DNA of 64,000 bases from Clostridiales bacterium (GCA_031276195.1 JAISNN010000077.1:5165-69164), one strand, 5' to 3'. Shown: positions 22,590-63,412, counted from the stretch's first letter. Translations and numbers: made by a program. Notes: generated by a model from the letters alone, not told the origin.

Positions 22590-22960
22590 TTAATGCCCTC
22601 ATATTCGTTCTATATATGTTTTTCCGTCTGTTATATAACTGTTTTTTTTAGTTTTCCGCGATACCGTACCGCGTTTTTTAAGGGATTTTCCGCCGTATTT
22701 ACGTATGTTTTTCATATCGTTTTACGGAGGATTTTCAGCCTTATTTCACGCGGTACTATGCCGCGTTTTTTAAGAGATTTTCCGCCGTATTTACGTATGT
22801 TTTTCATATCGTTTTACGGAGGTTTTCAGCCTTATTTTCCGCGATACCGTACCGCGTTTTTTAAGAGAATTTCCGCCGTATTTACGTATGTTTTTCATAT
22901 CGTTTTACGGAGGTTTTCAGCCTTATTTTCCGCGGTACTATGCCGCGTTTTTTTAATGGA
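22590..22960. repeat. about 95-bp tandem repeat x3.3
   Basis: unit TTCCGCGATACCGTACCGCGTTTTTTAAGGGATTTTCCGCCGTATTTACGTATGTTTTTCATATCGTTTTACGGAGG.TTTCAGCCTTATT. Confidence 0.8.
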
Positions 22961-24351: not shown

Positions 24352-25671
24352 CTACAACAAAAAATCTACCAAAGCGCACGCCGCCGCCGCCTCTATGACG
24401 GGAACGGCTCGCGGAACGATACAAGAATCGTGCCTGCCCGGGATTACAATTTTCGTATTTTTTCCGCTCGCGGCGTCGATCGTATCCTGCTCTTTCGCGA
24501 TCGACGGAACGGGTTTTATCGCGGTTCTGAACAAGATCGGCATACCGTTGGAAATCCCGCCCGTGATTCCGCCGTTGTTATTCGTCTTGGTTTTGACATC
24601 GGCTTTCGCGCCCGTTTGCGCGCCGCGCTTCTCCGGATTTAACCCGTTTTCGCGGCAAACGCCGGATTTTTCCGAATTTGACGCCGGATTAAAATAAGCC
24701 GTATTCTTTTCCGGATTCGATACGCTATTGCCGCAAGCCGCGTCTCTTTCCGGATTCGATACGCTATTGCCGCAAGCCGTGCCTCTTTCCGGATTCGATA
24801 CGCTATTACCGCAAGCCGTATTCTTTTCCGGATTTTTTTCCTCATAATAAATCGCGTCGTTCGCCGCGCTTCCGCGCATTTCCGAAAGTTTAAAGCCCCC
24901 TCCGAATTCAATCCCTTTAACCGCGGGAATCGCAAAAATCAACTTCGCGATACTCCCCTCTATGCCGTCATAGACGGGTTCGCCGATGCCGGCGGGCAGC
25001 CCCGTTACGACGCATTCGACCACGCCGCCCACCGAATCGCCATCGCGCGCCGCCGCGGTGATCTCTTCTATTATAGCCGTTTCGTATGAAAAGTCAAGCA
25101 AAGGATAAACCGCCGATTTCATTTCCGCGATTTTTTCACGGTTAAGTCCCTCTATCCCGCCGCCGTCAAGGTAAGAAACAGCCCGAACACGCCCGACGGA
25201 CGCCAAATATGCGGCGATTTCAACTCCGCGCGCCCTCAAAACCGAAAGCGCGACACTCCCCGCCGCGCACAAAGCCGCGGTCAAACGCCCCGAAAACTGT
25301 CCGCCGCCGCGATAGTCGTTATATCCGCCGTATTTTACATAGGCGGCATAGTCGGAATGCGACGGTCTGAACGCGCTTTTCAATATTTCATAGTCCGAAG
25401 AGCGCGCGTCGGCGTTTTCTATGATTATGCAAAGGGGCGCGCCCGTCGCCCTCCCGTCGAGCAGCCCCGACAAGACGACGGGGCGGTCGGTTTCACGCCT
25501 CGCCGTCGAATGAGCCGCGCTTGACGGACGCCTGCGCGCCAAAAAAGCGGCGATTTCGTCTAAGTCGATAGGCGTACCCGCGGGGATTCCGTTTATGACG
25601 ACGCCCATCGCCTTTGAATGAGACTCCCCGAAAATGTCGATTATAAAATTTTTTCCGCATATGAACGCCAT
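24352..25671 (-). CDS. aroC: chorismate synthase with tandem-repeat insertion
   Basis: 439 aa; GESHG-like N-terminus (FGESHSKAMGVVI.G.PAG), conserved C-terminal core; about 95-aa insert (24580-24865) containing 3 x 16-aa repeats ACGNSVSNPE(R/K).. Confidence 0.9.
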   Translation of the reverse strand: MAFICGKNFIIDIFGESHSKAMGVVINGIPAGTPIDLDEIAAFLARRRPSSAAHSTARRETDRPVVLSGLLDGRATGAPLCIIIENADARSSDYEILKSAFRPSHSDYAAYVKYGGYNDYRGGGQFSGRLTAALCAAGSVALSVLRARGVEIAAYLASVGRVRAVSYLDGGGIEGLNREKIAEMKSAVYPLLDFSYETAIIEEITAAARDGDSVGGVVECVVTGLPAGIGEPVYDGIEGSIAKLIFAIPAVKGIEFGGGFKLSEMRGSAANDAIYYEEKNPEKNTACGNSVSNPERGTACGNSVSNPERDAACGNSVSNPEKNTAYFNPASNSEKSGVCRENGLNPEKRGAQTGAKADVKTKTNNNGGITGGISNGMPILFRTAIKPVPSIAKEQDTIDAASGKNTKIVIPGRHDSCIVPRAVPVIEAAAACALVDFLL

Positions 25672-25898: not shown

Positions 25899-27803
25899 TT
25901 ACGCTTTCAGCCCTTCCAAATCCTCGAAAAAATCCGGATAAGATTTATTCACCGCTTCCGCCCCGACAATCTCCGCGGAAGAGCGGCAAATCAATCCCGC
26001 GACGGCGGCAGACATAACCATTCTATGGTCGTTATACCCGTCCAAAACGACGGTTTTTCCCTTCGCGTCTTTCCCGAATCCGCCTCCGCCGCCGTCGATT
26101 GTCAGGGTATCCCCGTCCGCAACCGCCGCGACGCCCAAACGGACGAGCATTTCCGCGGTCGCTTCGAGCCTGTCGCATTCTTTCAACCTCAATCTGCCGG
26201 CGTTGTATATGACGGTTCGTCCCGAAGCCGCGCCCGCCGCGACGGAAATTATAGGGATTATATCGGGTATATTTTTCGCGTCGATTTCAACGCCTTTCAA
26301 AGAAGATTTTTTGACCTCTATACCGCATTTTTCCGCGCCCGTTTCATTCGTTTCGCCGCATTTATTTTCACATATTTTACCGCGCTCTATACCGCGGTTC
26401 TTATCCGTTTCTCCGAATTCCGCGCCACAGTTTTTTTCCGTTTCGCCGCATTTATTTTCACACATTTTACCGCGCTCTATACCGCGGTTTTTATCCGTTT
26501 CTCCGAATTCCGCGCCGCCGTTTTTTTCTCTTTCGTAATACTCTTTTTCCCCCGTTTCGTTATGCTCTATACCGCGGTTTTTGACCGTTATATCGCCGCC
26601 CATACGCCTTATTATATCGACAATTTCTCTGTCGGGCTGCTTTGAATTAAGGTCTAATCCCTTCAAAAATATATCACCGTTCAAAACTCCCGCGACGATA
26701 AAAAACGCCGCGTTCGACCAATCTTTTTCAATCTCGACATACCCGGGAGAACGATATTTTCCGATATATTTATTACCCCCTAAACCGACCGCCGCCGCTT
26801 CAAAAGACGGACGGCTTTCACTATTTCCGGTATGTTTTTCATTTTCGCCCTCAATCGGCGCACACTCAGATTGCGGATATTTTTTTCCGTTTATAATGTA
26901 TTTCCCGTTTTCGCAACAGACCGCCGCCGCGCCGAATTTTTCCAAAACACCGAGTGTTATGTCGATATATCCCGCCGATTCGGGAGCGTTTCCGCACGAG
27001 ATAACGCTTTCGCCCTCTAAAAGAGGCAACGCCATAAGCAGTCCCGAGATAAATTGCGAACTGACCTTTCCGCCAAGCGTAAAAATTCCGCTTTTCAGCC
27101 GCCCGGACGTCCTCAAAATCCGTCCGTCTTTCAAGACTTTTACGCCGTTTTTTTTCATCGCGTCCGTCAATTCGTCCGTCGGGCGTTCGGGCAGTCTGCC
27201 GCTCATATGAAACTCCGCGTCGAACCCCAGCGCGGCGGCAAAAGGAAGCAAAAAACGCAGCGTCGAGCCGCTTTCGCCGCAGTCCAAGATCTTTATTTCG
27301 CCGCTTTTTTCCGCATTTAAATTTTCGGTGCTTGCGTTTCCGTCCGCTTTAAAATTCTTTATTTCGCCGCTTTTTTCCGCATTTAAATTTCTTATTTCCA
27401 CGCTCTTTTCCGCGTCCGCACCGCCCTTAATCCTCAAATCGGAAAGCGGAAATCCCTCTTGCTTGACCAAAAAATCCGCTTTTAAATTCCTTATTTCACC
27501 GCCGTTCCCGGCGTTTTTATTTTCGGTATCTTTATTTCCGTCCGCGTTTTGTCCCCGTTTTAAAATAGGCGTAATCTCGCAAGCCCCGTCCGGCATATCT
27601 CTAAATTCCGCGCCCAAAGCCGTCAAACACCGCCTCGTCGCCGCCGTATCCGCGGAATCGTTCAGCCCGAAAACGACGGTTTTTTTGTCCGCCGCGGCCG
27701 CGCAAATCATAACTCTGTGCGCGGCGGACTTCGACGTAATCACTTCGACCGAACCTTTTAAAAACGCGCCTTTTATAATTTTATTCATTCCGCTCCCATC
27801 CAT
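25899..27803 (-). CDS. aroA: 3-phosphoshikimate 1-carboxyvinyltransferase (EPSP synthase) with two repeat insertions
   Basis: 634 aa versus about 430 typical; conserved EPSPS blocks at the N-terminus, middle and C-terminus (..DHRM.M..A.A.L); inserts at about 27265-27560 and 26290-26620 (GETDKNRGIERGK.CENKCGET x2). An alternative start ATG at 27788 (MNKIIKG) has the better RBS (GGGAG). Confidence 0.85.
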   Translation of the reverse strand: MDGSGMNKIIKGAFLKGSVEVITSKSAAHRVMICAAAADKKTVVFGLNDSADTAATRRCLTALGAEFRDMPDGACEITPILKRGQNADGNKDTENKNAGNGGEIRNLKADFLVKQEGFPLSDLRIKGGADAEKSVEIRNLNAEKSGEIKNFKADGNASTENLNAEKSGEIKILDCGESGSTLRFLLPFAAALGFDAEFHMSGRLPERPTDELTDAMKKNGVKVLKDGRILRTSGRLKSGIFTLGGKVSSQFISGLLMALPLLEGESVISCGNAPESAGYIDITLGVLEKFGAAAVCCENGKYIINGKKYPQSECAPIEGENEKHTGNSESRPSFEAAAVGLGGNKYIGKYRSPGYVEIEKDWSNAAFFIVAGVLNGDIFLKGLDLNSKQPDREIVDIIRRMGGDITVKNRGIEHNETGEKEYYEREKNGGAEFGETDKNRGIERGKMCENKCGETEKNCGAEFGETDKNRGIERGKICENKCGETNETGAEKCGIEVKKSSLKGVEIDAKNIPDIIPIISVAAGAASGRTVIYNAGRLRLKECDRLEATAEMLVRLGVAAVADGDTLTIDGGGGGFGKDAKGKTVVLDGYNDHRMVMSAAVAGLICRSSAEIVGAEAVNKSYPDFFEDLEGLKA

Positions 27804-28143: not shown

Positions 28144-29448
28144 TCAACCGCCGATCCTCAAAAAATTCCTTATCTCTTTTGCCGGAATTTCCTCGACGGC
28201 GCACCGCCCTATACCGCGAATCACGACCGCCCCCAGCATCGCGCCGCTCATTTTTTTGTCGGAAAGTATGACCTCCGACATTTCGTCTATCCCGTACGGA
28301 CAGGGTATATCAAGACGGTTTTTTGAGAGCAGTTTCAAAATTCTTTCGTATTCGCCGCCGCTCAAAAAGCCCTTTTCACGCGACAAAGCCGCGATATATA
28401 AAAGCCCTATCGACACGCATTTCCCGTGGCGGATTTGATAGCCCGATAACTTTTCGACGGCGTGTCCGATCGTATGCCCGAGGTTGAGAAGCCGCCTGAC
28501 GTTTTGTTCTTTCTCGTCCGCTTCGACGATTTCCGCTTTTACGGCGACGGAAAGCGCGATAATTTTCTCCCAATTATAGCCGCCGTAAGCGTTTTTTCCG
28601 GTTTCATTTTTCTTTTCCGAACCGCCGCCATGCCCCGTACTATCGTTATTTTCTTCAAAACCGTCGTAATTTTCGGTATTCCCGTTATTGTTTTTCAATC
28701 CGCCGCTATGCCGCGCGCTATCCTTGTTTTCTTCGAAACCGTCGTAATTTTCGGTATTCCCGTTATTGTTTTTCAATACGCCGCTATGCCGCGCGCTATC
28801 GTTATTTTCTTCAAAACCGTCGTAATTACGGTTGTTTTCATTGTTTTTTTCCAATTCGTCCAACAGTTCACCGCCCTTTAAAATCGCGTGCTTCACAATC
28901 TCGCCCATTCCGTCGGCGATCAAATCCTCCGACAGCGTTTTCAAAAATCCGATATCGCAAAGCACCGCCCGCGGTTGATGAAACGCCCCCGCGAGATTTT
29001 TTCCGGTCGAAAGGTTTATGCCCGTCTTGCCTCCGACGGACGAATCGACGGCGGCGAGCAGCGTCGTGGGTATCTGAACGAGGTTTATTCCGCGCAAATA
29101 CGTCGCCGCGGCAAAGCCCGCGAGATCGCCCGTTACGCCCCCCCCGAGCGCGGCGGCGGCGTCGCTCCGCGTCAATTTCGCCTCCGCCAAAAACTCCAAA
29201 ATTTTAAAATATTCGGCGGAATTCTTTGAATTTTCTCCGCCCGTAAAGGTATGGGAAAAGACCTCGAAGCCCGCCGATTCGAGCGATTTTACGACGCGCG
29301 CGCCGTAAAGCCCGAATACCGTGCGGTCGGATATAAGGGCGATTTTACGGACTTTTTTTAAGCGTTCTTTGAGCGCGCCGCCGAAGTCTATGCCTTCGCC
29401 GATCACAACGTCGTAGCCTCCGCCGGCATTTACGCGAATTTGCGTCAT
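28144..29448 (-). CDS. aroB: 3-dehydroquinate synthase with repeat insertion
   Basis: 434 aa versus about 360; NAD-binding GGGV.GD.AGF.A, metal-binding H..GH..E motifs; insert 28565-28865 (NYDGFEENNDSARHSG.LKNNNGNTE x3). Confidence 0.85.
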   Translation of the reverse strand: MTQIRVNAGGGYDVVIGEGIDFGGALKERLKKVRKIALISDRTVFGLYGARVVKSLESAGFEVFSHTFTGGENSKNSAEYFKILEFLAEAKLTRSDAAAALGGGVTGDLAGFAAATYLRGINLVQIPTTLLAAVDSSVGGKTGINLSTGKNLAGAFHQPRAVLCDIGFLKTLSEDLIADGMGEIVKHAILKGGELLDELEKNNENNRNYDGFEENNDSARHSGVLKNNNGNTENYDGFEENKDSARHSGGLKNNNGNTENYDGFEENNDSTGHGGGSEKKNETGKNAYGGYNWEKIIALSVAVKAEIVEADEKEQNVRRLLNLGHTIGHAVEKLSGYQIRHGKCVSIGLLYIAALSREKGFLSGGEYERILKLLSKNRLDIPCPYGIDEMSEVILSDKKMSGAMLGAVVIRGIGRCAVEEIPAKEIRNFLRIGG

Positions 29449-37249: not shown

Positions 37250-37545
37250 TTTTTTTCAAATATATAGCGGCATTCCGAAAAATAAAACCGTAAATAACTA
37301 AATACTTAACTTTTATCTTAATTTCCGTATCCACCGTATCTCAATTCCGCATTCCGAAAAACAAAACCGTAAATAACTAAATACTTAACTTTTATTTTAA
37401 TTTCCGTATCCACCGTATCTCAATTCCGTATTCTAAAAAACAAAACCGTAACCGACTAAATATTTAAATTTTATCTTAATTTCCGTATCCACCGTATCTC
37501 AATTCCGTATTCCGAAAAACAAAACCGTAACCGACTCAAAACTCT
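37250..37545. repeat. about 62-bp tandem repeat x4 upstream of pta
   Basis: unit AATTTCCGTATCCACCGTATCTCAATTCCGTATTCCGAAAAACAAAACCGTAA.TAACTAAATACTTAACTTTTAT. Confidence 0.8.
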
Positions 37546-43633: not shown

Positions 43634-43710
43634 AAAGCGGTTTCCTCCTTTTTTTAGAATTCATTATTTTTTGTTTTTAAAGCGTTTTTTTGAATTTATT
43701 TCTTTCGTTT

Positions 43711-46700
43711 TTAAGCGTTTTTTTGAATTCGCCCGTTTCGTTTTTTAAGCGTTTTTTTGAATTCGTCCGTTTCGTTTTTAAGCGTTTTTTTGAATTCGCT
43801 CGTTTCGTTTTTTAAGCGTTTTTTGAATTCGTCCGTTTCGTTTTTTAAGCGTTTTTTGAATTCGTCCGTTTCGTTTTTAAGCGTTTTTTTGAATTCGTCC
43901 GTTTCGTTTTTAAGCGGTAATAATTCCTCTTCGGGCAGTTGAGACCTTGCCAACTCGCCGTAGGGCGGGCAATCGCGCATAAGTTCCTTATGCGTTCCCT
44001 GACCGATGATTTTTCCGCCGTCCACCATTACGATCTTGTCGGCGTTTAAGACGGACGCGATCCTTTGCGTTACGACTATTACTCCCGCGTTATTTTCCTT
44101 TGTTTCGCGGCTCAGCGCGGCGCGTAAATTCGCCTCGGTCAGATAGTCCAGCGCGGAAAACGAATCGTCGAAAACATACAACCGCGGACGGCGCACGACG
44201 GCGCGCGCGATCGCGAGTCTCTGTTTTTGACCGCCCGACATATTTTTTCCGGCGCGGCTGACGAACGCGCCGTATTTATCCGTTCCGTTTTCGTTCGGTA
44301 CCGTTTTTTCGCCGTTCGGTATTATTTCAACGTTATTCCTTCCTTTTTCTTTCTCGTTTTGTATTATTTCACTTCTTTCCGCGGTTTTCGGCTCTTTTGC
44401 GCCGATGAAATCTTCGGCTTTCGCGATCAAAACCGCCCTGTCCATATCGGCTATATCCGCGTCCTCCTTCCCCGCGGCGAGGTTTTCCCTCACCGTTCCC
44501 GAAAAAAGGCGCGGTTGTTGGGATACGAATCCGATATTTTTCCTCAAATCCTCCTGCCTTACGCGCCTTATATCTATTCCGTTGACGAAAACCGCCCCCT
44601 CGGTCGGGTCGTAGAAACGTAAAATGAGGTTTACGATCGTGGTTTTTCCGCTGCCCGTAACGCCGACGATAGCGGTTGTTTTGCCCGATTTCGCCTCGAA
44701 CGACACGTCTTTCAGAGCGTATTCGCCGCTCCCCGCGTATTTAAATGCGACGTTTTGAAAACGGATATCGAATCTCTTTTCTTTGGCGGCGGATTTTCCG
44801 CCGTTCGTTTCTAATTCCGTATTCGAAGACTTATCTTTATCTTTATTTAATTCCGTTTCAAAATTCAAAGATTTTCCGCCGTTCGTTTTCAATTCCGTAT
44901 TTAATTCCGTTCCGGCGTTAACCGGCTCTCCCGTATATATATCGACGGGGTTTTCGGGGTCGGCGACCTCGGGTTTCGCCGCCAAGATCTCCCAAATCCT
45001 CTTCATCGCGACGACCGCGCGCGGCAAAAAAACGAACATCCCCGCGATCAGCATAAACGCGTAGATTATCTGCACGGTATACTGCAAAAACGCCAGCAAA
45101 CTCCCGGGCAGTATAGAACCGTCGATAAGATAGTTTCTGTCCACCGTGAGGTATATGATTACAACGCCCAAAGCGTTCAAAAACAACATCATAAAAGGAT
45201 TCAATAACGCCATAGTGCGGTTGATAAAGAGGTTCACGTTCGTGATTTTTTGGTTCACGTCCTCATATCTCCCCTCCTCGCGCGGTTCGTTGTCGTTCGC
45301 GCGTATGACCAAAACGCCGCTCAAACGCTCCCTCGTTACGAGATTGAGTTTGTCGAGAAGTTTTTGTCCCGCGAGAAATTTCGGCAAAACCAAAGCGTAG
45401 ACCGCTGCCACGCCGACGGAAATGACCGCGATCATAGCCGCGATCAAAAGCAGCAGCCGTTCGTTTATTCCCAGCGTCTTATGCAGATAATACAGCCCGC
45501 CGCCCACGACGAATATCGCGTAGAAGGTGTTTTTTATCATAAGAAAAAACAGGCTTTGGAGTTGGCTTACGTCGTTCGACGTTCTCGTGATCAAAGACGC
45601 GGTCGAAAATTTGTCGAATTCCGCGTTCGAGAAGGTCTGCACCTTTGAAAAAACGTCGCGTCTGAGATCGCGCGCGACGTTCGCCGCGACGCGCGCCGAC
45701 AACGCGATTATGACCGCCGCCGCCGCTATACTCCCCACGGTATAGAGGAGCATAAAAATTCCGTTTTGGACGATATAATTGATTTGAAGCAGGCGCGTAT
45801 CCACGCCCGCCCGCCCGTACTCGAACTTTTTATAGTCGATATTTCCGAGTTCTAATATATAGTCCGTGATCTCGGGCGCGATTCTCGAAAAAGCGGAGAG
45901 TACAGTATCGGCGAAACTTGACGCTTCGTTTTCGTCTATGCCGAATTCGTCGACCAACGCTTTTACGACGTCCTCTTTTTTTATCTCGCCCGCTTTTGGC
46001 GAAAATTTGCCGTTCACCGCGCCCGAAACGATCTGCATAAACAGCCCTCTTTCGGAATTTCCGTAAATCACGCCCTCTCCGTCCGGGTTTTGTCTCTCGC
46101 TCATAGCCTTTAATTCGTCAAAATATTCGGATAGCGTCCAGCCTTTTTGATTTTCTTTATATTCGTTAAATCCGTCGGGATTGTCTTTCGGGTTTAGTCC
46201 GTTGAAATACGCGAACAACACGGAAAGAAAAGAGTTGTCGCTCAAAAAGCCCACGGACGAAATCGCAAGCATTTCGTTAAACGCCGCGTAGACTATCGCG
46301 GGAATTTTTAATTTTTCGCGGAGAGCGTCGATTTCCTCCTCCGTAAAGTCGTTTTTAAAATATTCGACGTTGCGTTTGAGGAGATACACCTCCTCGCCCT
46401 CGTTTAGTTTCGTATACTTTTTTTTGTATGCCTCGAATTCTTTTTTATCGATAACCCTTAACGGGTTTGTGTAGGCGTAGTTAATCCCGATATAATAATT
46501 TTTAAACTCATCGTACTCCTTGTCCGTCATAAAGAGTTTAATTTCCCCGAAAGTCTTTTGGCTGAAAACGTCGGGGAGAGCGTCGTCGATTCCGTATTGC
46601 CTGATTCCGACGTTTATCATATTGGACATATATTTCGGCAATTCCAAATCGCAGTACGCCTGAATCCCGATCAAGCATACCGCGAGAATAATTATTTTTA

Positions 46701-49106: not shown

Positions 49107-49134
49107 AAAAAACGCGGTTGGTTTGCCGCGGAAA

Positions 49135-49430
49135 TACTTGCGGAATAATACGCTAAAAACACGGCTCTATACCGCGGAATTACGCGCAGAATAATATACT
49201 AAAAAACGCGGCTCTATACCGCGGAATGACGAACGGAATAATATACTAAAAACGCGGCTCTATACCGCGGAAATACTTGCGGAATAATATACTAAAAAAC
49301 GCGGCTCTATACCGCGGAATTGCGAACGGAATAATATACTAAAAAACGCGGCTCTATACCGCTGAATTACGCGCAGAATAATATACTAAAAAACGCGGCT
49401 CTATACCGCGGAATTACGCGCAAAAAACAC
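49135..49430. repeat. about 58-bp tandem repeat x5 between potA and potB
   Basis: unit ACGCGGCTCTATACCGCGGAATTACGCGCAGAATAATATACTAAAAA. Confidence 0.85.
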
Positions 49431-53755: not shown

Positions 53756-53799
53756 ATTTAAAATCGGTTTTTCGCGTAATTAAACGCGTAAAATCCGAC

Positions 53800-54000
53800 G
53801 TCATAGAGGCGCGGAATATCAATAGTAACTTTTTTTTAAGAGGGCTTCGCGGCTTTCGCATATTCTTTCCCGTCCGCTTTACGGGAAGTTATGACCGTTA
53901 AGAAAAGTGAAAGGGATTTTCCGCCGAAACAAAACGGAATTTTATCGCGGTTTTCCGTTTTGTTGGCCGCGCGGGGCTAATACCTCTCCGGCTGTCGCTT
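53800..54000 (+). promoter_or_regulatory. candidate lysine riboswitch (L-box)
   Basis: ordered conserved L-box blocks: AGAGGCGC (53808), AGTAAC (about 53826), GAAAGGG (53893), CCGAAAC (53907), TGGCCG (53957), GCTGTCGC (53990) over about 190 nt, followed by a U-rich stretch; downstream neighbourhood includes asd-dapA-dapB. Confidence 0.5.
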
Positions 54001-54249
54001 TTGTTTTGTATTTTGTTTTTCGGTCGTTTCGGCAAATACGGCGGTTAAAAGTTCCGCGTTGACCGATTAAAAACTTTGCGGTTAAAGTTTTCGGCGCGGG
54101 TTGCAAAAATACAAAAAAAATAAAGCGGAGCGCTATGTTACTTCTAAAATTACGGGGTTTAAATAAGCGGCAGTTTTTTTAAACCGTTGTTTTGGGGCGG
54201 CATTAGCGGAATGCCGTCTTTATTTATACCTCGAAAAAAAATAAAAATT

Positions 54250-54600
54250 TACTTTCGGCATAACAAAAACGAAATAAAAAACGCGTTATCTTTCCACTTT
54301 CGGCATAACAAAAAACGAAATAAAAAACGCGTTGTCTTTCCCCGTTCGGCATAACAAAAACGAAATAAAAAACGCGTTATCTTTTCCCCGTTCGGCATAA
54401 CAAAAAACGAAACAAAAAACGCGTTATCTTTTCCCCGTTCGGCATAACAAAAACGAAATAAAAACGCGTTATCTTTCCCCGTTCGGCATAACAAAAAACG
54501 CGTTGTCTTTCCGCTTTCGGCATAACAAAAAACGAAATAAAAAACGCGTTATCTTTTCCCCGTTCGGCATAACAAAAACGAAACAAAAAAACGCGTTTTT
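54250..54600. repeat. 46-bp tandem repeat x about 7 (unit GTTCGGCATAACAAAAACGAAATAAAAAACGCGTTATCTTTTCCCC)
   Basis: near-identical units with no unique spacers; each contains the AACGCGTT palindrome; one unit internally deleted (54481-54515). Confidence 0.85.
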
Positions 54601-54666
54601 TTATAACGGAAAGAATAAAAAACTATATTTCCGTCATCCCCCAAAAAATCGGGAGGTAAAACAAAA

Positions 54667-55752
54667 TTGAGCGAAGAAAATAACGCTTTCAACGGCGAAT
54701 CAAACCCCGCCGTTTCATACGGTTGTTCCTCTTGCGGCGGCGCGCTCGAATACTCGCCCGAAAAGGGCGCGCTTTGCTGTCCGTACTGCGGAAATACGGA
54801 GGAAGTCGCGCGCGGCGAGTCCGCGGAACGCGATTTTTTGTCGCACGCCTCCTCTTCCGAGGGCTGGGCGGAAGAAGCGTTCGCCTATTCCTGCCCGAAC
54901 TGCGGAAGCGCGCAAGTCATCGAAAAAGACGACTTGACGCACGTATGCCCTTTTTGCGGCACGCAAGCCGTCCTGAACAGCGGCGTTTTGACGGGTATCA
55001 AACCCGACAGCCTGATCCCCTTTTCTCTGCCGCGGACAAAGGCGGAGGAGGCTTTTAAGGCGTGGACAAAGAGCCGTTTTTTCCTGCCGAACGCCCTAAA
55101 AAAACGGGCGGACGCCGATAAATATCACGGCGTGTTTATGCCCGTCTGGACGTTCGACGACAAAACCTTTTCCGATTATGAAGGGCTGCTCGGAAAACAC
55201 TACACCGTTACGGTCGGAAGCGGCAAAAACCGCCGCACCGAAGTACGCACGAGATATTTCAGCATTAAAGGTTCCGTTTCGGAATTTTTCGATGACGTTT
55301 GCATAAACGCCAGCGACAAAATCGAAAAAAAACATCTGAATAAAATTATGCCCTACGACACCAACAACGGCGTAAAATACGACAAAAAGTTTTTGGCGGG
55401 TTTTTCGGCGATACGGTATAACAAGGACATAAAAACCGCGTGGGCGGAGGCGAAAGACAATATCGCGGGGCGGCTCCGCGCGCTCATTTTGTCAAAATAT
55501 AACTATGACGTCGTGTCGCGCCTCAATATCCAAACGCGGCACACGAACATCACCTTTAAATATATACTGCTCCCCGTTTGGGTCTCGAATTTCAAATATA
55601 ATTCTAAAATATACAATTTTTTTATAAACGGAATAAGCGGAAAAGTTTCGGGAAAACGCCCGTACTCCGCGCCGAAAATTCTCGCCGCGATCGGAGGGGG
55701 ACTCGCCGCCGCGGGGCTGCTGTTTTTTCTCATTTCAAAACTTGCGGGGTAA
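54667..55752 (+). CDS. hypothetical zinc-ribbon protein with C-terminal TM anchor
   Basis: 361 aa; three CxxC..CPxCG pairs at the N-terminus (CSSCGG..CCPYCG; CPNCGS..CPFCG); C-terminal hydrophobic helix; TTG start with GGGAGG RBS. Confidence 0.5.
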   Translation: MSEENNAFNGESNPAVSYGCSSCGGALEYSPEKGALCCPYCGNTEEVARGESAERDFLSHASSSEGWAEEAFAYSCPNCGSAQVIEKDDLTHVCPFCGTQAVLNSGVLTGIKPDSLIPFSLPRTKAEEAFKAWTKSRFFLPNALKKRADADKYHGVFMPVWTFDDKTFSDYEGLLGKHYTVTVGSGKNRRTEVRTRYFSIKGSVSEFFDDVCINASDKIEKKHLNKIMPYDTNNGVKYDKKFLAGFSAIRYNKDIKTAWAEAKDNIAGRLRALILSKYNYDVVSRLNIQTRHTNITFKYILLPVWVSNFKYNSKIYNFFINGISGKVSGKRPYSAPKILAAIGGGLAAAGLLFFLISKLAG

Positions 55753-55789
55753 TGAAAGCGCGAACTTAGCGGAAATACTATACAGAGTC

Positions 55790-56000
55790 CAAACAACGGC
55801 ATACCGTACAAAATCTAAATAATGCAATACTCTAATAACGCGGCATACCGTGCAAAACCTAAACAATGCAATACTCTAATAACGCGGCATACCGTGCAAA
55901 ACCTAAACAATGCAATACTCTAATAACGCGGCATACCGTACAAAACCTAAATAATGCAATACTCTAATAACGCGGCATACTATGCAAAATCTAAATAATG
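55790..56000. repeat. about 57-bp tandem repeat x about 4 upstream of asd
   Basis: unit CTAAACAATGCAATACTCTAATAACGCGGCATACCGTGCAAAAC. Confidence 0.8.
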
Positions 56001-56130
56001 TAATATTCTAAAATACAGAATACTCCGCAAAACCGGTTAAATACCGCCGCTAACCGCCGCAAATGTAAAATCCCTTTCAATCACATCATAATATATAATA
56101 CACAATATATATCAAGGAGAAACAACGTCA

Positions 56131-57129
56131 ATGAAAAAGTACAATATCGCGGTCGTCGGCGCGACCGGTATGGTCGGAAATAAATTTTTGCAGGTTTTGT
56201 CCGAAAAAAATCTGCCCGTCGAAAACTACTATCTCTACGCCTCCGCGAAAAGCGCGGGCAAGGTCATAAATTTTATGGGCAAGGATCTCACCGTCCTCGA
56301 ACTCACGCGCGAAAATATCACGGGGAAAAATATCGATATCGCCCTCTTTTCGGCGGGCGCGTCGGTCAGCCGCGAGTTTGCGCCGGTGTTCGCGGAGGCG
56401 GGCGCGGTCGTGATCGACAACAGCAGTTGTTTTAGAATGGACAAGGACGTGCCGCTCGTCGTTCCGGAAGTCAACCCCGAAGACGTCTTTTGGAACAAGG
56501 GCGTCATCGCGAACCCGAATTGCTCGACGATTCAAGCCGTCGTCGCCTTGAAACCCCTGCACGACAAATACAAAATCAAAAGGATCGTCTATTCGACCTA
56601 TCAATCCGTGTCGGGCGCGGGAATGGGCGGTTATAACGACCTTATCGAGGGCGCGAAAGGCAATCCCCCGAAGAAATTTCCCTACCCTATTTTCAACAAT
56701 TTAATTCCTCAAATCGACGTCTTTTTGGAGGACGGGTACACGAAAGAGGAGGTCAAAATGATCAACGAAACGCGCAAAATCCTGCACGACGACGGTCTGA
56801 AAATCACGGCTACGACGGTCAGAGTTCCCGTAACGTACGGACACAGCGAATCTATAAACGTCGAGTTTTTTGAACCCTGTACGCTCGGCGGGATCAAGGA
56901 CGCGCTCAAAAATCAAGAGGGAATCGTTTTGTACGACGACATAAAAAACGGCGTATATCCGATGCCGTGCGTCTGCGAGGACAAAGACGAGGTTTTCGTG
57001 GGCAGAATCAGATTGGACGAGAGCGTCGAAAGCGGTTGTAATATATTCGTCGTCGCCGACAATATCCGAAAAGGCGCGGCGACAAACGCCGTCCAAATCG
57101 CCGAATATATCATCAAAAACGAAAAATAA
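56131..57129 (+). CDS. asd: aspartate-semialdehyde dehydrogenase
   Basis: 332 aa; VGATGMVG N-terminus, NPNCSTI active-site Cys, SGAG motif. Confidence 0.92.
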   Translation: MKKYNIAVVGATGMVGNKFLQVLSEKNLPVENYYLYASAKSAGKVINFMGKDLTVLELTRENITGKNIDIALFSAGASVSREFAPVFAEAGAVVIDNSSCFRMDKDVPLVVPEVNPEDVFWNKGVIANPNCSTIQAVVALKPLHDKYKIKRIVYSTYQSVSGAGMGGYNDLIEGAKGNPPKKFPYPIFNNLIPQIDVFLEDGYTKEEVKMINETRKILHDDGLKITATTVRVPVTYGHSESINVEFFEPCTLGGIKDALKNQEGIVLYDDIKNGVYPMPCVCEDKDEVFVGRIRLDESVESGCNIFVVADNIRKGAATNAVQIAEYIIKNEK

Positions 57130-57467
57130 TTATATAATATACGTTATATAAAACGGACGTAAAAACAAAAACGGTTATATGATATATATTATATAAATCA
57201 AACGCTTGAAAACCGGATAATATATAATATACGTTATATAAATCAAGCGTGAAAACCGAATAATATATACAATGTAAGTTACGTAAATACGCCGTGAAAA
57301 AACATAAAGAATTATATAATGTAAGTTATACCATTCCAAAACGAAAAACGGATAATATATAATACAAATTATATAAGCGCGGAAAAATAGAAAGAATTAT
57401 ATGATATATATTATATAAAAATTATATAAAAAAATAACGCGTATTAAAAAAACGGGAAGTGATTTTT

Positions 57468-58370
57468 ATGACAGACGCTATATTTAAAGGCTGCGGAACG
57501 GCTCTCATCACGCCCTTCACGGAGGGCGGCGGCGCGGTGGATTTTTCCGCGCTGGAACGTCTTATCGAGTTTCAGATTTCAAACGGGATAGATTCTCTCG
57601 TCGCGCTTGGCACGACGGGCGAAGCGATGACCCTCACCCCCTCCGAAAAAGAGGAGGTCATAAGGTTCGCGGTTTCAAAGATCAACCGCCGCGTTCCCGT
57701 CATAGTGGGAACGGGTTCAAATTCGACGGCTTGCGCGGTCGAAAATTCGCGCGCCGCCGAAAAACTCGGCGCGGACGGGATTCTCCTCGTTACCCCGTAC
57801 TACAATAAATGCACTCAAAACGGACTTATCGCCCATTTCGGCGCGGTTGCGGACGCGGTGGGGCTGCCCGTCGTCGCCTACAACGTCCCGGGACGCACGG
57901 GCGTGAACATTCTCCCCGCGACGTTTGCGAAAATGTGCGAACACAAAAACGTTTCCGCGATAAAGGAAGCGAGCGGCGACATCTCCCAAATTTCCGAAAC
58001 CGCCCGCCTGACGCGCGGCAAAGCGCACATATATTGCGGCGACGACGGGATAATTCTGCCCGTGATTAGCGTCGGGGGGATAGGCGTGATCAGCGTCGCG
58101 GCGAATATCGCGCCCAAATATTTTTCGGAATTGACCGCCGCCGCCCTGAGCGGACAAAAAAAAGCGGTCGAAATGCAACTCAACGCTTTACCCCTCATAA
58201 AGGCTCTTTTTTCCGAAGTCAATCCCATTCCCGTCAAGGCGGCGGCGGAACTGCTCGGGCTGTCCGGCGGCGCGGTCAGACTTCCCCTCACCCGGATCGA
58301 GGACGGCAATCTTTTGAATCTCAAAAAAGTTACGGACGAATTTTTTAAAGCGCAAGAAAATTTTTTTTAA
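57468..58370 (+). CDS. dapA: 4-hydroxy-tetrahydrodipicolinate synthase
   Basis: GTTGE motif (LGTTGEAMTLT), YNVPGRTG, Schiff-base K region; start set to ATG 57468 (MTDAIFKG). Confidence 0.9.
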   Translation: MTDAIFKGCGTALITPFTEGGGAVDFSALERLIEFQISNGIDSLVALGTTGEAMTLTPSEKEEVIRFAVSKINRRVPVIVGTGSNSTACAVENSRAAEKLGADGILLVTPYYNKCTQNGLIAHFGAVADAVGLPVVAYNVPGRTGVNILPATFAKMCEHKNVSAIKEASGDISQISETARLTRGKAHIYCGDDGIILPVISVGGIGVISVAANIAPKYFSELTAAALSGQKKAVEMQLNALPLIKALFSEVNPIPVKAAAELLGLSGGAVRLPLTRIEDGNLLNLKKVTDEFFKAQENFF

Positions 58371-58394: not shown

Positions 58395-58660
58395 TATAAA
58401 TCCGCATTCTAAATTGTAGAAAAACGGATAAAATTTTCGCATTCGATATTAAAAAAGCATAAAAAAACGATTGTATTATTTTGTATTTCAATACTAAAAA
58501 AGTATAAATAACGATTGAAAACATTGTATATCCGTTATTAAAAAACATAAAAAAACGATTGAAAACATTATATATCCGCCGTTAAAAAAGCATAAAAAAC
58601 GATTGTATTATTTTGTCTTTCAATATTAAAAAGCATAAATAACGATTGAGTTAAAAAAAA
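58395..58660. repeat. about 60-bp tandem repeat x4 between dapA and dapB
   Basis: unit GTTAAAAAAGCATAAAAAACGATTGTATTATTTTGTATTTCAATACTAAAAA / variant ..GATTGAAAACATTGTATATCCG. Confidence 0.75.
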
Positions 58661-58667
58661 GGAAAAT

Positions 58668-59867
58668 ATGATTAAGGTTTTGATTTTCGGAATCAGCGGA
58701 AAAATGGGGCATATGATATACTCTCAACTCCAAAACCACGAAAGGTTAAAGGCGGTCGCGGGGATTGACAAATACGCCGTCAAGATAGATTTCGACGTCC
58801 CCGTCTTTCCCGACGTCAAGGACTGCGCGGTCGTACCCGACGTGATAATCGACTTTTCGCGCCCCGACTCGCTCCAAGACATCCTTGCCTACGCCGTCCC
58901 GAACAATATTCCCGTCGTCCTCGCCACGACGGGCTATTCCGCCGAACAACTCGACAAAATTTCGCGCGCCTCAAAAGACGTTCCGATTTTTATGACGAGC
59001 AATATGTCTCTCGGCATAAATCTTTTGATCTCCCTCGCCAAACAAGCGGCCGGCTTTTTGGGCGGCGGTTTCGACGTCGAGATCGTCGAGCAGCACCACA
59101 ACCAAAAGGCGGACTCCCCCAGCGGCACCGCGCTTTCGATCGCGCGCGCCGTCAACGAAATTTTTTCGGAGGACAAGGAATTCGTCTACGGCAGATGCGG
59201 AAATTCATCCAAACGCCGCCCCTCCGAAATAGGGATTCACGCCGTGCGCGGCGGGACGATCGTCGGCAAACACGACGTGATGTTTATCGGCACGGACGAA
59301 GTCATAACTCTCACCCACGAGGCGCAGAGCAGGCGCGTTTTCGCGGCGGGAGCGATCCGCGCCGCCGAATATATCGTCGGGAAAAAACCGAAAATCTACG
59401 GTATGAACAACCTCTTAGGGCCGGACTATTCCGTAACGGGCGTCCGCGTCGAAAACGATATCACGGTGTTCAATATCGCGAATACCGATATCGCGGAATA
59501 CATAAAAATGTTCGACGCGTTCGCAAAGGAAAATATCAATATCGATATGATAAGTCAGGTCTATAACGCGGGCGGTTCGGTCGCTATAAGTTTCACCGTA
59601 AAGGATAAAAAATCCGAAAAATCCAAAACCGTTCTGGAAAATCAAAAAATTAAGTTCTCCGCCGTCAACGGTACCGCCAAAATCACCTGCGAAGGCGCGG
59701 GTATGGAATACCAAAGCGGCGTGTTTAAAGATATCGTCAATATCCTGCGCGGAGTCGGCGCGAAAATCTATCTCGTAACCACAAGCGAAACCAAAATCTC
59801 TTGCTGCGTCGACTCCCCCTCCGCGAAAGAAGCCGAAAAACTAATCGCAGATTACTATATTAAATAA
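58668..59867 (+). CDS. dapB: 4-hydroxy-tetrahydrodipicolinate reductase fused to C-terminal tandem ACT-like regulatory domains
   Basis: residues 1-265 = DapB (GxxGxMG N-terminus, E.HH..K.D.PSGTA catalytic motif); residues about 270-399 resemble aspartokinase-type ACT domains (ISFTV, KISCCV patterns). Confidence 0.8.
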   Translation: MIKVLIFGISGKMGHMIYSQLQNHERLKAVAGIDKYAVKIDFDVPVFPDVKDCAVVPDVIIDFSRPDSLQDILAYAVPNNIPVVLATTGYSAEQLDKISRASKDVPIFMTSNMSLGINLLISLAKQAAGFLGGGFDVEIVEQHHNQKADSPSGTALSIARAVNEIFSEDKEFVYGRCGNSSKRRPSEIGIHAVRGGTIVGKHDVMFIGTDEVITLTHEAQSRRVFAAGAIRAAEYIVGKKPKIYGMNNLLGPDYSVTGVRVENDITVFNIANTDIAEYIKMFDAFAKENINIDMISQVYNAGGSVAISFTVKDKKSEKSKTVLENQKIKFSAVNGTAKITCEGAGMEYQSGVFKDIVNILRGVGAKIYLVTTSETKISCCVDSPSAKEAEKLIADYYIK

Positions 59868-60163
59868 CGGAAAATTCATTTTACGCGCGGGAAAACTTTT
59901 CTAAAACTTTTAGTAAATTTAAAACACGGTTTTACGTTATAAAACTTTCACTATTAAAAAAACTTCTCTCTTAAAAAACAAGAGAGAAGTTTTTTAAAAA
60001 GGAATTTTATTTATATTTTTTCGTCTTTTCTTTTAAGTAAAACCGCTAAAATCTTAATTGAAATCTCCGGAATTCCCGGCCGAAATTGTGAAAATCTTAA
60101 CAAACTTTATTTTTTGCGGTTATTTACTTGCCATATTTTTATAATTGGCTTATAATATATAGC

Positions 60164-62248: not shown

Positions 62249-63412
62249 ATGTATAAAATTTTAAAATTGAATGAAATAAGCGACCGAATCGACGCGATTT
62301 TTGATGAAAACTATTCCTGCACCGACGACGCGAACGAAGACGCGGACGGCATAATCGTCCGCAGTTTCAAGATGGCGGATTTTAATACGGGCGGCAGGCT
62401 CAAAGCCGTCGCGCGCGCGGGCGCGGGCGTAAACAACATTCCGATAGACAAGATGACGGAAAAGAACGTCGTCGTTTTCAACACTCCGGGCGCGAACGCG
62501 AACGCCGTCAAGGAACTTGTCATTTGTTCTTTGCTTTTGGCTTCCCGAAAGGTTACGGAGTCGATCGGCTGGGCGGCGGCGCAGAAGGGCAAGGGCGGCG
62601 AAGTCCCGAAACTCGTCGAGAAGTTTAAAAACCAATTTGTCGGACCCGAAATCGCGGGGAAAACTCTCGGCGTGATCGGTTTGGGCGCGATCGGGATTCT
62701 GGTTGCGAACGCCGCGATCGGTTTGGATATGAAGGTTTTGGGGTATGACCCGTATCTCAGCGTCGAGTCCGCGCTCACCTTAAACAACAAAGTCGGGCAT
62801 ACCAAGGACATAAACGCCCTTTATGCCGCGAGCGACTATATAACTTTGCATCTTCCCCTTTTGCCCTCGACTTCGGGTATGATAAACGCCGAAACGATCG
62901 CCAAGATGAAAGACGGCGTAAAACTTATCAATTGCGCGCGCGGCGAATTAGCGGACAACGCCGCGGTGATTGCGGCGGTGAGTTCGGGCAAGGTCGCCAA
63001 GTACGTAACGGATTTTCCGACGGACGACGTTTTGAACGTCGAAAACATAATTGCGATTCCCCATCTCGGCGCGTCCACGCCCGAAGCGGAGGACAACTGC
63101 GCGGTTATGGCGGCGAAACAACTCAAAGACTACCTTGAAAACGGCAATATCGTAAACAGCGTGAACTACCCCGCGGCGGTTTTGCCGCGCAGCGGAAAAG
63201 CGCGGATCACGATCACGCACAAAAATATAAGCGGTATGATATCGCAGGCGGCGGCTTTCCTCTCCGACTCAAAAATTAATATCTCGAATATGCTCAGCGC
63301 GACGCGCGGCGACCTCGGCTATATGATAATCGATACCGACGACGCCGTACCCGAAAAAACTATATCCGAAATGAAAAAAATCCAAGGCTTCCTGCAAATC
63401 AATATATATTAA
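62249..63412 (+). CDS. serA: D-3-phosphoglycerate dehydrogenase (short form with C-terminal ACT)
   Basis: 387 aa; 2-hydroxyacid DH NAD-binding GxGxIG (GVIGLGAIG), catalytic R/E/H region, C-terminal ACT (ITHKNISGMIS). Confidence 0.88.
   Translation: MYKILKLNEISDRIDAIFDENYSCTDDANEDADGIIVRSFKMADFNTGGRLKAVARAGAGVNNIPIDKMTEKNVVVFNTPGANANAVKELVICSLLLASRKVTESIGWAAAQKGKGGEVPKLVEKFKNQFVGPEIAGKTLGVIGLGAIGILVANAAIGLDMKVLGYDPYLSVESALTLNNKVGHTKDINALYAASDYITLHLPLLPSTSGMINAETIAKMKDGVKLINCARGELADNAAVIAAVSSGKVAKYVTDFPTDDVLNVENIIAIPHLGASTPEAEDNCAVMAAKQLKDYLENGNIVNSVNYPAAVLPRSGKARITITHKNISGMISQAAAFLSDSKINISNMLSATRGDLGYMIIDTDDAVPEKTISEMKKIQGFLQINIY

What the first reader, a model, noticed from the sequence alone, without database searches (positions are those of the whole stretch)
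58668..59867. DapB fused to tandem ACT-like domains
The first about 265 residues are a canonical dihydrodipicolinate reductase. The C-terminal about 130 residues have the ferredoxin-like ACT pattern found in the aspartokinase regulatory region (ISFTVKD..., KISCCVD...). This fusion would put DapB under direct allosteric control by lysine, threonine or a related effector. I do not recall this architecture being characterised. It sits in a dapA-dapB block with no lysC nearby.
Basis: inference. Interest (0 to 1): 0.55.

Follow-up and report, generated by a model that had tools for sequence, protein, structure and literature searches.

The report
DapB fused to aspartokinase regulatory module
A lysine-pathway enzyme (DapB) in this gut-type Clostridia genome carries, as a permanent C-terminal addition, the amino-acid-sensing module normally found on aspartokinase; the same fusion occurs in over a hundred species, has never been studied, and probably lets the cell switch DapB off directly.

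Summary
ORF 58668-59867 (+) encodes one uninterrupted 399-aa protein. Residues 1-251 are a complete, catalytically intact DapB. Residues 255-399 are a tandem ACT pair that aligns with, and is predicted to fold like, the whole regulatory region (beta subunit) of alpha2beta2-type aspartokinases.

It is not an artefact or a one-off:
- The architecture occurs in at least 117 species-representative genomes (Christensenellales and other Clostridia, Oscillospiraceae, Mahella, Spirochaetota).
- It nearly always closes an asd-dapA-dapB operon, often behind a lysine riboswitch.
- The two halves co-diverge and are under equally strong purifying selection.
- In two lineages the same modules are adjacent genes (dapB plus a 155-162-aa ACT-pair gene).
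- One close relative lacks the module entirely.

One ACT-interface pocket is almost invariant, while the loop that binds threonine in C. glutamicum aspartokinase is degenerate. The neighbouring DapA usually carries the lysine-insensitive marker.

The most likely function is end-product (probably lysine) allosteric control of DapB. This is inferred, not shown. All databases call the protein plain DapB, and no paper found describes it. It is a new variant of a known kind, of moderate interest.

The parts
58668..59867 (+). Fusion gene dapB-ACT2 (399 aa; identical to MDR2091428.1)
   Evidence: Single ORF. A 100%-identical protein, P0001, is in the databases.
58671..59006 (+). [quoted passage not shown]
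   Evidence: Pfam PF01113, 93 bits. The glycines are conserved in the family.
59013..59417 (+). DapB C-terminal substrate-binding/tetramerisation domain (residues 116-250), including the catalytic H143-H144-x-x-K147-x-D-x-P-S-G-T-A motif
   Evidence: Pfam PF05173, 152 bits. The motif is invariant in 45 homologs. The fold matches 44 DapB structures.
59418..59438 (+). Junction (residues 251-257, GPDYSVT). It has no flexible linker and corresponds to the point where the aspartokinase beta subunit begins (C. glutamicum residue ~250)
   Evidence: Profile alignment to 3aaw_A from residue 244. V256 and T257 are (nearly) invariant. There is no internal ribosome-binding site ahead of Met246.
59439..59642 (+). 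ACT1 (residues 258-325, beta-alpha-beta-beta-alpha). Strands N291-x-D293-M-I-S-Q297 and S308-F309-T310 are conserved; the beta1-alpha1 loop is degenerate
   Evidence: AlphaFold models. Conservation in 116 homologs.
59658..59858 (+). ACT2 (residues 331-397)
   Evidence: Pfam ACT_9/ACT_7, residues 335-393. Models. Fold hits to aspartokinase beta subunits, TM 0.78-0.84.
59679..59726 (+). Nearly invariant ACT2 beta1-alpha1 loop K338-I-T-C-E-G343-A-G345-M346-E-Y-Q-S-G351-V-F353 (family consensus KLTxEGAGMEHxSGVA): the predicted effector pocket
   Evidence: G343, G345 and M346 occur in 115/116, G351 in 114/116. Aligns to C. glutamicum G351-A-G-M354...G359.
59778..59807 (+). Nearly invariant ACT2 strand T371-T-S-E-T-K-I-S-C-C380. 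It aligns with the C. glutamicum S379-T-S-E382 strand next to the lysine site
   Evidence: [quoted passage not shown]
57459..58370 (+). dapA (DHDPS) directly upstream. Lys at the position equivalent to E. coli residue 56, the lysine-insensitive marker
   Evidence: ORF. Motif GTTGEAMTLTPSEK. Marker rule from PMC5109050.
56131..57129 (+). asd (aspartate-semialdehyde dehydrogenase), first gene of the conserved asd-dapA-dapB block
   Evidence: ORF. An asd-family ORF lies upstream of the fusion in 56 of 84 sequences, on the same strand in almost all. Pfam Semialdhyde_dh in relatives.
53796..54008 (+). Lysine riboswitch aptamer, 2.1 kb upstream of asd. In relatives it sits directly upstream of asd
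   Evidence: Rfam RF00168, 62.8 bits, cut-off 30. The same element lies directly before asd in L001, L037 and L068.
59951..60001 (+). Terminator-like hairpin plus T-run that closes the operon after the fusion gene
   Evidence: Inverted repeat I4, 22-nt arms, 91% complementary. Sequence.

Best explanation
The gene encodes an active 4-hydroxy-tetrahydrodipicolinate reductase (DapB). It has permanently captured the regulatory module of an alpha2beta2-type aspartokinase, namely the tandem ACT pair that in lysC is also made separately as the beta subunit.

Proposed mechanism (inferred):
1. As in aspartokinase beta subunits, ACT pairs from two chains of the DapB tetramer associate. This forms amino-acid pockets at the ACT1/ACT2 interfaces.
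2. An end product of the branch binds in the one well-conserved pocket. That pocket consists of the ACT2 loop EGAGME(H)xSG, the strand TTSETKIS, and the ACT1 strands NxDMISQ and SFT. The effector is most probably L-lysine, and less probably meso-diaminopimelate.
3. Binding locks the ACT dimer. Through the short rigid junction to DapB's last helix, this restrains the hinge closure of the NAD(P)H and substrate domains and so lowers activity.

The result is fast feedback control at the second committed step of the lysine branch, in organisms whose DapA carries the lysine-insensitive marker. It acts on top of slower lysine-riboswitch control of the operon.

Shown: the architecture, the fold, the distribution, the selection and the site conservation.
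Inferred: ligand binding, the identity of the ligand, and the effect on catalysis.
For: Architecture and fold
- domain scans; matches to solved aspartokinases.
- full-length model, pLDDT 90.8.
- all top 50 fold hits for the isolated module are aspartokinase regulatory domains or beta subunits (TM 0.78-0.84, rmsd about 2 A).
- The DapB part is intact: TIGR00036 above its cut-off, and the HHxxK motif is invariant.

A family, not an accident
- More than 110 clusters at 43-85% identity.
- 117 genome relatives, and 83 of 84 sequences carry one ORF.
- About 51 of the best 150 representatives at 50% identity are fusions.

The module is under selection
- dN/dS is 0.03-0.15 for the ACT half and 0.04-0.17 for the DapB half.
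- The two halves co-diverge, r = 0.88.

A ligand-type pocket is conserved
- G343, G345 and M346 in 115/116; T371 and T372 in 115/116; D293 in 116/116; F309 in 114/116.
- These map onto the C. glutamicum loop G351-G359 and the strand S379-E382, next to the lysine site.
- The ACT1 'DKPG' loop, which holds the threonine-site mutant positions I272/D274, is degenerate and two residues shorter.

Functional link to DapB
- The same two modules occur as adjacent genes, dapB then an ACT pair, in L068 (a cultured isolate) and in L085/L086.

Lysine logic
- dapA lies directly upstream in 69 of 84 sequences and asd in 56 of 84.
- A lysine riboswitch precedes the operon in the window and in 3 of 7 other loci.
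- DapA position 56 is Lys or Arg in 66 of 79 neighbours, the lysine-insensitive marker of PMC5109050.

Precedent
- Effector binding drives association of beta-type ACT pairs in C. glutamicum aspartokinase (PMC4691045).
Against: - No binding or kinetic data exist.
- DapB has no known allosteric feedback in any organism, so there is no precedent for how an ACT pair would act on it.
- The ligand assignment rests partly on my recollection of the C. glutamicum lysine and threonine sites. The primary papers could not be read.
- Gln297, the equivalent of the threonine-site residue Q298, is still present in 81 of 116 sequences.
- A close relative (L088, 75% identical) does without the module, so it is dispensable for DapB function.
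- Lys/Arg at DapA position 56 is common in Gram-positive bacteria generally. It also occurs in the ACT-less relative, so it is not specific evidence.
- The quaternary arrangement could not be modelled, because only single-chain prediction is offered.
Confidence: 0.55

Rival explanations
1. Surrogate aspartokinase beta subunit. The ACT pair on DapB (or the free ACT-pair protein in the split lineages) pairs with the regulatory region of an alpha2beta2-type aspartokinase alpha chain. This would tether DapB to aspartokinase, or would regulate the kinase rather than DapB.
For: The module corresponds exactly to the beta subunit, starting at the same point. In C. glutamicum aspartokinase, beta-type ACT pairs naturally heterodimerise with the alpha regulatory region (PMC4691045). 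Free ACT-pair genes exist.
Against: No aspartokinase gene is linked to the fusion in 83 of 84 neighbourhoods. The only one seen (L022) belongs to the PRK09034 class, which has its own, differently arranged ACT pair. The free ACT-pair genes sit directly behind dapB, not lysC. Whole genomes could not be searched, so an alpha2beta2 kinase elsewhere in the genome is not excluded.
Confidence: 0.13
2. The module is a regulator, but the effector is not lysine. Candidates are threonine, methionine or isoleucine (cross-branch balancing), meso-DAP, or an activator such as aspartate or aspartate semialdehyde.
For: Aspartokinase beta subunits solved so far mostly bind threonine (2dt9, 3s1t, 4go7). Gln297 is retained in 70% of sequences. 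The family-specific residues E347 and H348 in the conserved loop differ from the aspartokinases in the profile alignments (C. glutamicum reads GAGMKSHPG) and could specify a different ligand.
Against: The threonine-type ACT1 loop is degenerate. The operon is lysine-riboswitch controlled. DapB is committed to the DAP/lysine branch, so its end products are the logical signal.
Confidence: 0.17
3. The module is structural only. The ACT pair has lost ligand sensing and serves only oligomerisation, stability or solubility of DapB.
For: One of the two pocket types is degenerate. A close relative lacks the module. Non-ligand ACT domains are known (general knowledge).
Against: The glycine-rich ACT2 loop and its partner strands are nearly invariant across roughly 35-40% overall ACT identity. 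That is the pattern of a preserved binding pocket, not just a fold. Purifying selection is as strong as on the enzyme.
Confidence: 0.12
4. Artefact: a missed stop, a frameshift or an assembly chimera joins dapB to a separate ACT gene.
For: Split versions exist in two lineages. Some database 'stand-alone' ACT proteins are fragments.
Against: An identical single ORF is found in 83 of 84 independent assemblies, including a complete chromosome (CP070696.1). The junction residues V256 and T257 are conserved. The two halves co-diverge.
Confidence: 0.01

Closest known systems
Aspartokinase beta subunit / regulatory region of alpha2beta2-type LysC (C. glutamicum 2DTJ/3AAW, T. thermophilus 2DT9, M. tuberculosis 3S1T, P. 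aeruginosa 5YEI, Synechocystis 3L76)
   Same: Same tandem ACT pair, same start point, same fold (TM 0.78-0.84), and shared GxGM...G and (S/T)TSExxIS motifs. It probably works the same way, through effector-dependent pairing of ACT domains.
   Different: It is attached to DapB instead of an amino-acid kinase domain. The ACT1 'DKPG' loop is degenerate. There are family-specific residues (E347/H348, C379/C380). There is no evidence of a separately translated copy.
Canonical bacterial DapB / DHDPR (E. coli 1ARZ, S. aureus 3QY9, T. maritima 1VM6)
   Same: Residues 1-251 are a full DapB with intact cofactor and catalytic motifs, in a dapA-dapB operon.
   Different: All 44 solved DapB chains that matched are 215-275 aa and end where the ACT module begins. 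No allosteric regulation of DapB by pathway end products turned up in the literature searched.
Other biosynthetic enzymes with C-terminal ACT regulators (SerA 3-phosphoglycerate dehydrogenase, PheA prephenate dehydratase, threonine deaminase, B. subtilis homoserine dehydrogenase)
   Same: The same design principle: a catalytic domain plus C-terminal ACT domain(s) that bind the end product. SerA and PheA examples lie in this same window (62249-63412 and 22963-24126).
   Different: Those carry one ACT or ACT-like domain of other subfamilies. Here the complete two-ACT aspartokinase unit was transplanted.
Lysine-inhibited DHDPS (DapA) of Gram-negative bacteria and plants
   Same: It provides feedback control at the entry of the lysine-specific branch (PMC5109050). 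The fusion would do the same job one step later.
   Different: The DHDPS site is an intrinsic pocket at the dimer interface, not a separate domain. Here DapA carries the insensitive marker Lys56.
Bifunctional aspartokinase fusions (AK-homoserine dehydrogenase ThrA/MetL; AK-diaminopimelate decarboxylase, NCBIfam NF006515)
   Same: The aspartokinase regulatory ACT region is combined with another aspartate-family enzyme in one chain (one search lists these models).
   Different: Those keep the kinase domain. This protein has none (no AA_kinase hit).

Membership tests
DapB / 4-hydroxy-tetrahydrodipicolinate reductase (TIGR00036, EC 1.17.1.8) | Equivalog HMM score above the curated cut-off over the full model length | tested here: met
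   212.8 bits against a cut-off of 122; residues 1-251 match model positions 1-270.
DapB / 4-hydroxy-tetrahydrodipicolinate reductase (TIGR00036, EC 1.17.1.8) | N-terminal Rossmann GxxGxxG and both Pfam domains (DapB_N, DapB_C) | tested here: met
   G8, G11 and G14 are present. PF01113 scores 93 bits and PF05173 scores 152 bits.
DapB / 4-hydroxy-tetrahydrodipicolinate reductase (TIGR00036, EC 1.17.1.8) | Catalytic/substrate motif E-x-H-H-x-x-K-x-D-x-P-S-G-T-A | tested here: met
   E141, H143, H144, K147, D149, P151, S152, G153, T154 and A155 are invariant in 45 homologs. The identity of the motif is from my own knowledge of E. coli H159/H160/K163.
DapB / 4-hydroxy-tetrahydrodipicolinate reductase (TIGR00036, EC 1.17.1.8) | DapB fold | tested here: met
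   The top 44 PDB hits are DapB structures, E 1e-28 to 1e-17, target TM up to 0.9.
DapB / 4-hydroxy-tetrahydrodipicolinate reductase (TIGR00036, EC 1.17.1.8) | Reductase activity on HTPA/DHDP with NAD(P)H | not testable with these tools
   Needs an enzyme assay.
Aspartokinase regulatory module (tandem ACT pair, beta-subunit type) | [quoted passage not shown] | tested here: met
   ACT_9 scores 65.4 bits (cut-off 27) in two stretches. The secondary structure in the models agrees.
Aspartokinase regulatory module (tandem ACT pair, beta-subunit type) | Colinear alignment with the whole regulatory region, and fold match to solved beta subunits | tested here: met
   Residues 255-397 align to positions 252-402 of 407. 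The family profile matches 3l76, 2re1, 3aaw and 5yei with E 1e-58 to 1e-28. TM is 0.78-0.84 with rmsd about 2 A.
Aspartokinase regulatory module (tandem ACT pair, beta-subunit type) | Conserved effector pockets at both ACT beta1-alpha1 loops | tested here: inconclusive
   The ACT2 loop pocket is nearly invariant. The ACT1 loop (threonine-type 'DKPG') is degenerate and two residues shorter.
Aspartokinase regulatory module (tandem ACT pair, beta-subunit type) | Binds lysine and/or threonine and pairs with a partner ACT pair | not testable with these tools
   Needs ITC or thermal shift, and AUC or multimer modelling.
Aspartate kinase (EC 2.7.2.4) | Amino-acid kinase catalytic domain (PF00696) and a whole-protein score above the family cut-off | tested here: not met
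   There is no AA_kinase hit. The best aspartokinase model scores 69 bits against cut-offs of 346-657. The protein is not an aspartokinase.

The most novel reading that the evidence does not exclude
The ACT pair on DapB, and the free ACT-pair protein encoded behind dapB in Soleaferrea-like lineages, acts as a shared regulatory subunit. It would pair with the regulatory region of the cell's aspartokinase as a surrogate beta subunit. That would physically couple the first enzyme of the aspartate pathway to the lysine-branch reductase, so that one effector-binding event controls both steps (a regulated AK-DapB assembly).
Probability: 0.08. Interest if true: 0.8.

Novelty: new variant of a known kind. 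Interest (0 to 1): 0.5.

Why it matters
DapB (DHDPR) is a textbook enzyme and an antibiotic target. In the literature searched here, feedback control in the lysine pathway is placed at aspartokinase and DHDPS. If the ACT module does confer end-product inhibition, this would be the first allosterically regulated DapB. A large group of uncultured gut and sediment Clostridia and Spirochaetes would then have moved branch-point control one step downstream, by transplanting a ready-made sensor from the pathway's first enzyme.

It is also a clean natural example of the portability of a two-ACT regulatory cassette. It exists fused, split and absent in close relatives, which is useful for engineering ligand-controlled enzymes and for annotating these genomes. 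At present every copy is labelled plain DapB.

The question is directly testable with one recombinant protein and a standard coupled assay.

Tried and rejected
1. 'Aspartokinase has lost its ACT domains to DapB'. The only aspartokinase found near a fusion (L022) keeps its own ACT pair. The idea is not supported, though whole genomes could not be searched.

2. An internal translation start that makes a free beta-like subunit, as in lysC. No ribosome-binding motif precedes the invariant Met246: 0 of 80 strong, and 9% weak against 23% at other internal Mets. Rejected.

3. Using the 'stand-alone ACT pair' representatives as evidence for many split genes. L084, L087 and L089 turned out to be frameshifted or fragmentary fusions. 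Only L068 and L085/L086 are accepted.

4. Compensation test: does the ACT-less relative have a lysine-sensitive DapA? No, L088 also has Lys56. The only His56 is in the split-gene isolate L068. No clean correlation.

5. The word-indexed search with the ACT region alone found only 7 hits. It was replaced by the profile search.

6. A sequence-only nhmmer search for the riboswitch in other loci found nothing. The Rfam covariance models did find it.

7. The primary structural papers on C. glutamicum and M. tuberculosis aspartokinase were not available. Residue-level contacts for the lysine site therefore rest on secondary sources and on my own recollection.

8. The look-up of encoding contigs had no record for the window's own protein.

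Full report
1. THE OBSERVATION

The window has a single ATG-initiated ORF at 58668-59867 on the + strand. It encodes 399 residues with no internal stop. An AAGGA ribosome-binding site lies 5 nt upstream. A hairpin with a T-run follows at 59951-60001.

Pfam finds DapB_N (residues 2-113), DapB_C (116-250) and ACT_9 in two stretches, all above their gathering scores. NCBIfam's dapB equivalog TIGR00036 scores 212.8 bits against a cut-off of 122 over residues 1-251. Residues 255-397 align colinearly with positions 252-402 of several 407-aa aspartate kinase models at E about 1e-19, which is the entire regulatory region. The kinase models score far below their cut-offs and there is no AA_kinase domain, so the protein is not an aspartokinase.

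DapB ends at about residue 251, not 265. The ACT part is about 145 residues, not 130. There is practically no linker.

2. FOLD

A 45-sequence alignment (A1) gave an AlphaFold2 model with mean pLDDT 90.8 and pTM 0.75. [quoted passage not shown] Against the PDB, its first 44 hits are DapB structures of 215-275 residues that cover only the N-terminal two thirds. After those come aspartokinases. No DapB chain that matched has such an extension.

The C-terminal module was also modelled alone (pLDDT 90.1). Its top 50 hits are exclusively aspartokinase regulatory domains and beta subunits, with TM 0.78-0.84 relative to the ~150-residue beta subunits and rmsd about 2 A. Sequence searches of the PDB agree: phmmer E 1e-15 to 1e-4, and the family profile E 1e-58 to 1e-21.

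3. A CONSERVED FAMILY, NOT A ONE-OFF

- A search of 5.8 billion proteins returned more than 110 clusters of 382-421 residues with the same Pfam architecture at 43-85% identity. All were named only '4-hydroxy-tetrahydrodipicolinate reductase'. The window's protein is MDR2091428.1 from a Clostridiales MAG.
- A scan of one genome per GTDB species, using the junction+ACT profile (A2), found 117 relatives. The best 80 were fetched. They come from Christensenellales and Christensenellaceae, many unclassified Clostridia, Oscillospiraceae, Mahella, Feifaniaceae, the cultured Ca. Soleaferrea massiliensis AP7, and a tight group of Spirochaetota that includes a complete chromosome.
- In 83 of 84 sequences one ORF carries both the DapB and the ACT profile hits.
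- A profile search of 1.84 billion 50%-identity representatives gave 120 hits at E <= 1e-30. Of the best 150, about 51 are fusions. The rest are aspartokinases (mostly the ~600-residue type with a duplicated regulatory region) or short ACT-pair proteins.
- Pairwise identities of the DapB and ACT halves correlate at r = 0.88. The spirochaete copies have the same clostridial nearest neighbours in both halves. This fits one ancestral fusion inherited, and occasionally transferred, as a unit.
- dN/dS on 14 close pairs is 0.03-0.15 for the ACT half and 0.04-0.17 for the DapB half. The module is as constrained as the enzyme.

4. CONTEXT

The gene closes an asd-dapA-dapB block. dapA lies directly upstream in 69 of 84 sequences and asd in 56 of 84. 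A lysine riboswitch is present upstream in the window. It sits directly before asd in 3 of 7 other loci tested.

No aspartokinase is present in the window. Among all the flanks, only L022 holds one. It is a PRK09034-class enzyme with its own ACT domains.

5. NATURAL VARIANTS

Two lineages carry the modules as separate adjacent genes.
- Ca. Soleaferrea massiliensis (L068): dapB (249 aa) ends at TGA. About 40 nt later (a second in-frame stop lies between) a GGAGGTG site and an ATG start a 155-aa ACT-pair gene.
- L085/L086, two independent samples: a 245-aa dapB is followed 18 nt later by a 162-aa ACT-pair gene.

Fused and split forms of the same pair, always next to dapB and never next to lysC, argue that the module's partner is DapB.

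Other apparent stand-alone ACT proteins proved to be frameshifted or truncated fusions. Conversely, a close relative (L088, 75% identical in the DapB part) has the same operon but a 261-aa DapB and no ACT gene. The module is therefore an accessory, as expected for a regulator.

6. WHICH LIGAND?

The family profile aligns with C. glutamicum aspartokinase from residue 244. The numbering lands on the known mutant positions I272, D274, A279, Q298, S301, T308, T311, G345 and S381 (mutant table in PMC10464499).

Across 116 fusions, four segments are almost invariant:
- the ACT2 beta1-alpha1 loop KLTxEGAGMEHxSGVA (G343, G345 and M346 in 115/116);
- the ACT2 strand TTSETKISCC;
- the ACT1 strand NxDMISQ;
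- the ACT1 strand SFT.

The ACT1 beta1-alpha1 loop is different. In C. glutamicum it is G271-I-S-D274-K-P-G and holds threonine-site mutant positions. In the fusions it is variable and two residues shorter.

[quoted passage not shown] It also places a lysine site in the regulatory region at the alpha/beta interface (PMC4691045).

Together with the pathway position of DapB and the lysine riboswitches, this favours lysine (or meso-DAP) over threonine.

A further consistent observation concerns DapA. According to PMC5109050, DHDPS residue 56 (E. coli numbering) is His or Glu in lysine-inhibited enzymes and Lys or Arg in insensitive ones. The DapA next to the fusion has Lys or Arg in 66 of 79 cases, including this window, and His only in the split-gene isolate. 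This marker is common in Gram-positive bacteria and also occurs in the ACT-less relative, so it is supportive but not specific.

7. MECHANISM PROPOSED

Bacterial DapB is a homotetramer whose activity needs closure of the cofactor and substrate domains (PMC5109050). Beta-type ACT pairs associate with a partner pair, and effector binding stabilises that association (PMC4691045).

I propose that ACT pairs from neighbouring DapB chains dimerise. The end product binds in the conserved ACT2-loop pocket. Through the short rigid junction, the locked ACT dimer then restrains DapB's domain movement and inhibits it.

An internal start that would make a free beta-like copy, as in lysC, is not supported. 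No ribosome-binding motif precedes the junction Met in 80 genes.

8. RIVALS

- A surrogate aspartokinase beta subunit. Not excluded, because whole genomes could not be searched. It is disfavoured by gene linkage and by the one aspartokinase seen.
- A regulator with a different effector.
- A purely structural module. Disfavoured by the pocket conservation.
- An artefact. Refuted.

9. NOVELTY

Eight full-text searches found no description of a DapB-ACT protein and no report of end-product allostery in DapB (six aimed at the architecture; two on aspartokinase structure). The architecture is, however, plainly visible in public domain annotations, and it follows the familiar 'enzyme plus ACT regulator' logic.

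I therefore class it as a new variant of a known kind. It is uncharacterised, widespread and easily testable, and of moderate interest (0.5).

Noticed in passing
window, whole length; e.g. 322-719, 2794-3231, 15960-16210, 22652-22953, 37270-37530, 43669-43916, 49107-49421, 54254-54597, 55797-56011, 57104-57420, 58441-58649: Almost every intergenic spacer carries its own tandem-repeat array. The unit sequences are unrelated to each other, with periods mostly 33-49 nt or 70-149 nt. All four spacers of the riboswitch/asd/dapA/dapB region have arrays with a ~44-46-nt period. In relatives the same genes are packed with spacers under 15 nt.
   Followed up: partly
window 24696-24834 (inside ORF 24352-25671, chorismate synthase), 28622-28827 (inside ORF 28144-29448, 3-dehydroquinate synthase), 26331-26589, 22042-22225: Tandem repeats with periods divisible by three (39, 78, 90 and 72 nt) lie inside ORFs. 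At least the first two are housekeeping genes. Those two enzymes are unusually long (439 and 434 aa), and their Pfam matches are split or gapped. This suggests in-frame repeat insertions.
   Followed up: no
window 53796-56130: The lysine riboswitch is 2.1 kb from asd. In between lie a terminator-like hairpin (54194-54220), a 46-nt x 7.8 repeat array and a 361-aa zinc-ribbon protein with a C-terminal hydrophobic tail (54667-55752). In relatives the riboswitch abuts asd. Either something was inserted into the leader, or the riboswitch now controls a longer transcript.
   Followed up: partly
L088 1492-2277 (GCA_031289865.1, JAITOQ010000248.1): A close relative (75% identity in the DapB part) with the same asd-dapA-dapB operon has a 261-aa DapB and no ACT module or ACT gene. 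This is a natural deletion control.
   Followed up: yes
protein P0269 (479 aa), from the representative search: A protein with an N-terminal glycoside hydrolase family 3 domain followed by an aspartokinase-type ACT pair. It is either another unexpected host for this module or a chimeric gene call.
   Followed up: no
L068 8420-9331 (Ca. Soleaferrea massiliensis AP7): The only DapA among the 79 scored neighbours with His at the lysine-sensitivity position 56 belongs to the one isolate where dapB and the ACT pair are separate genes.
   Followed up: no
proteins P0135, P0137, P0146 and others (580-635 aa), from the representative search: The aspartokinases whose regulatory regions score best against the fusion-family profile are the ~600-residue enzymes with a duplicated ACT-pair region (Synechocystis 3L76 type). 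This may hint at the donor lineage of the module.
   Followed up: no
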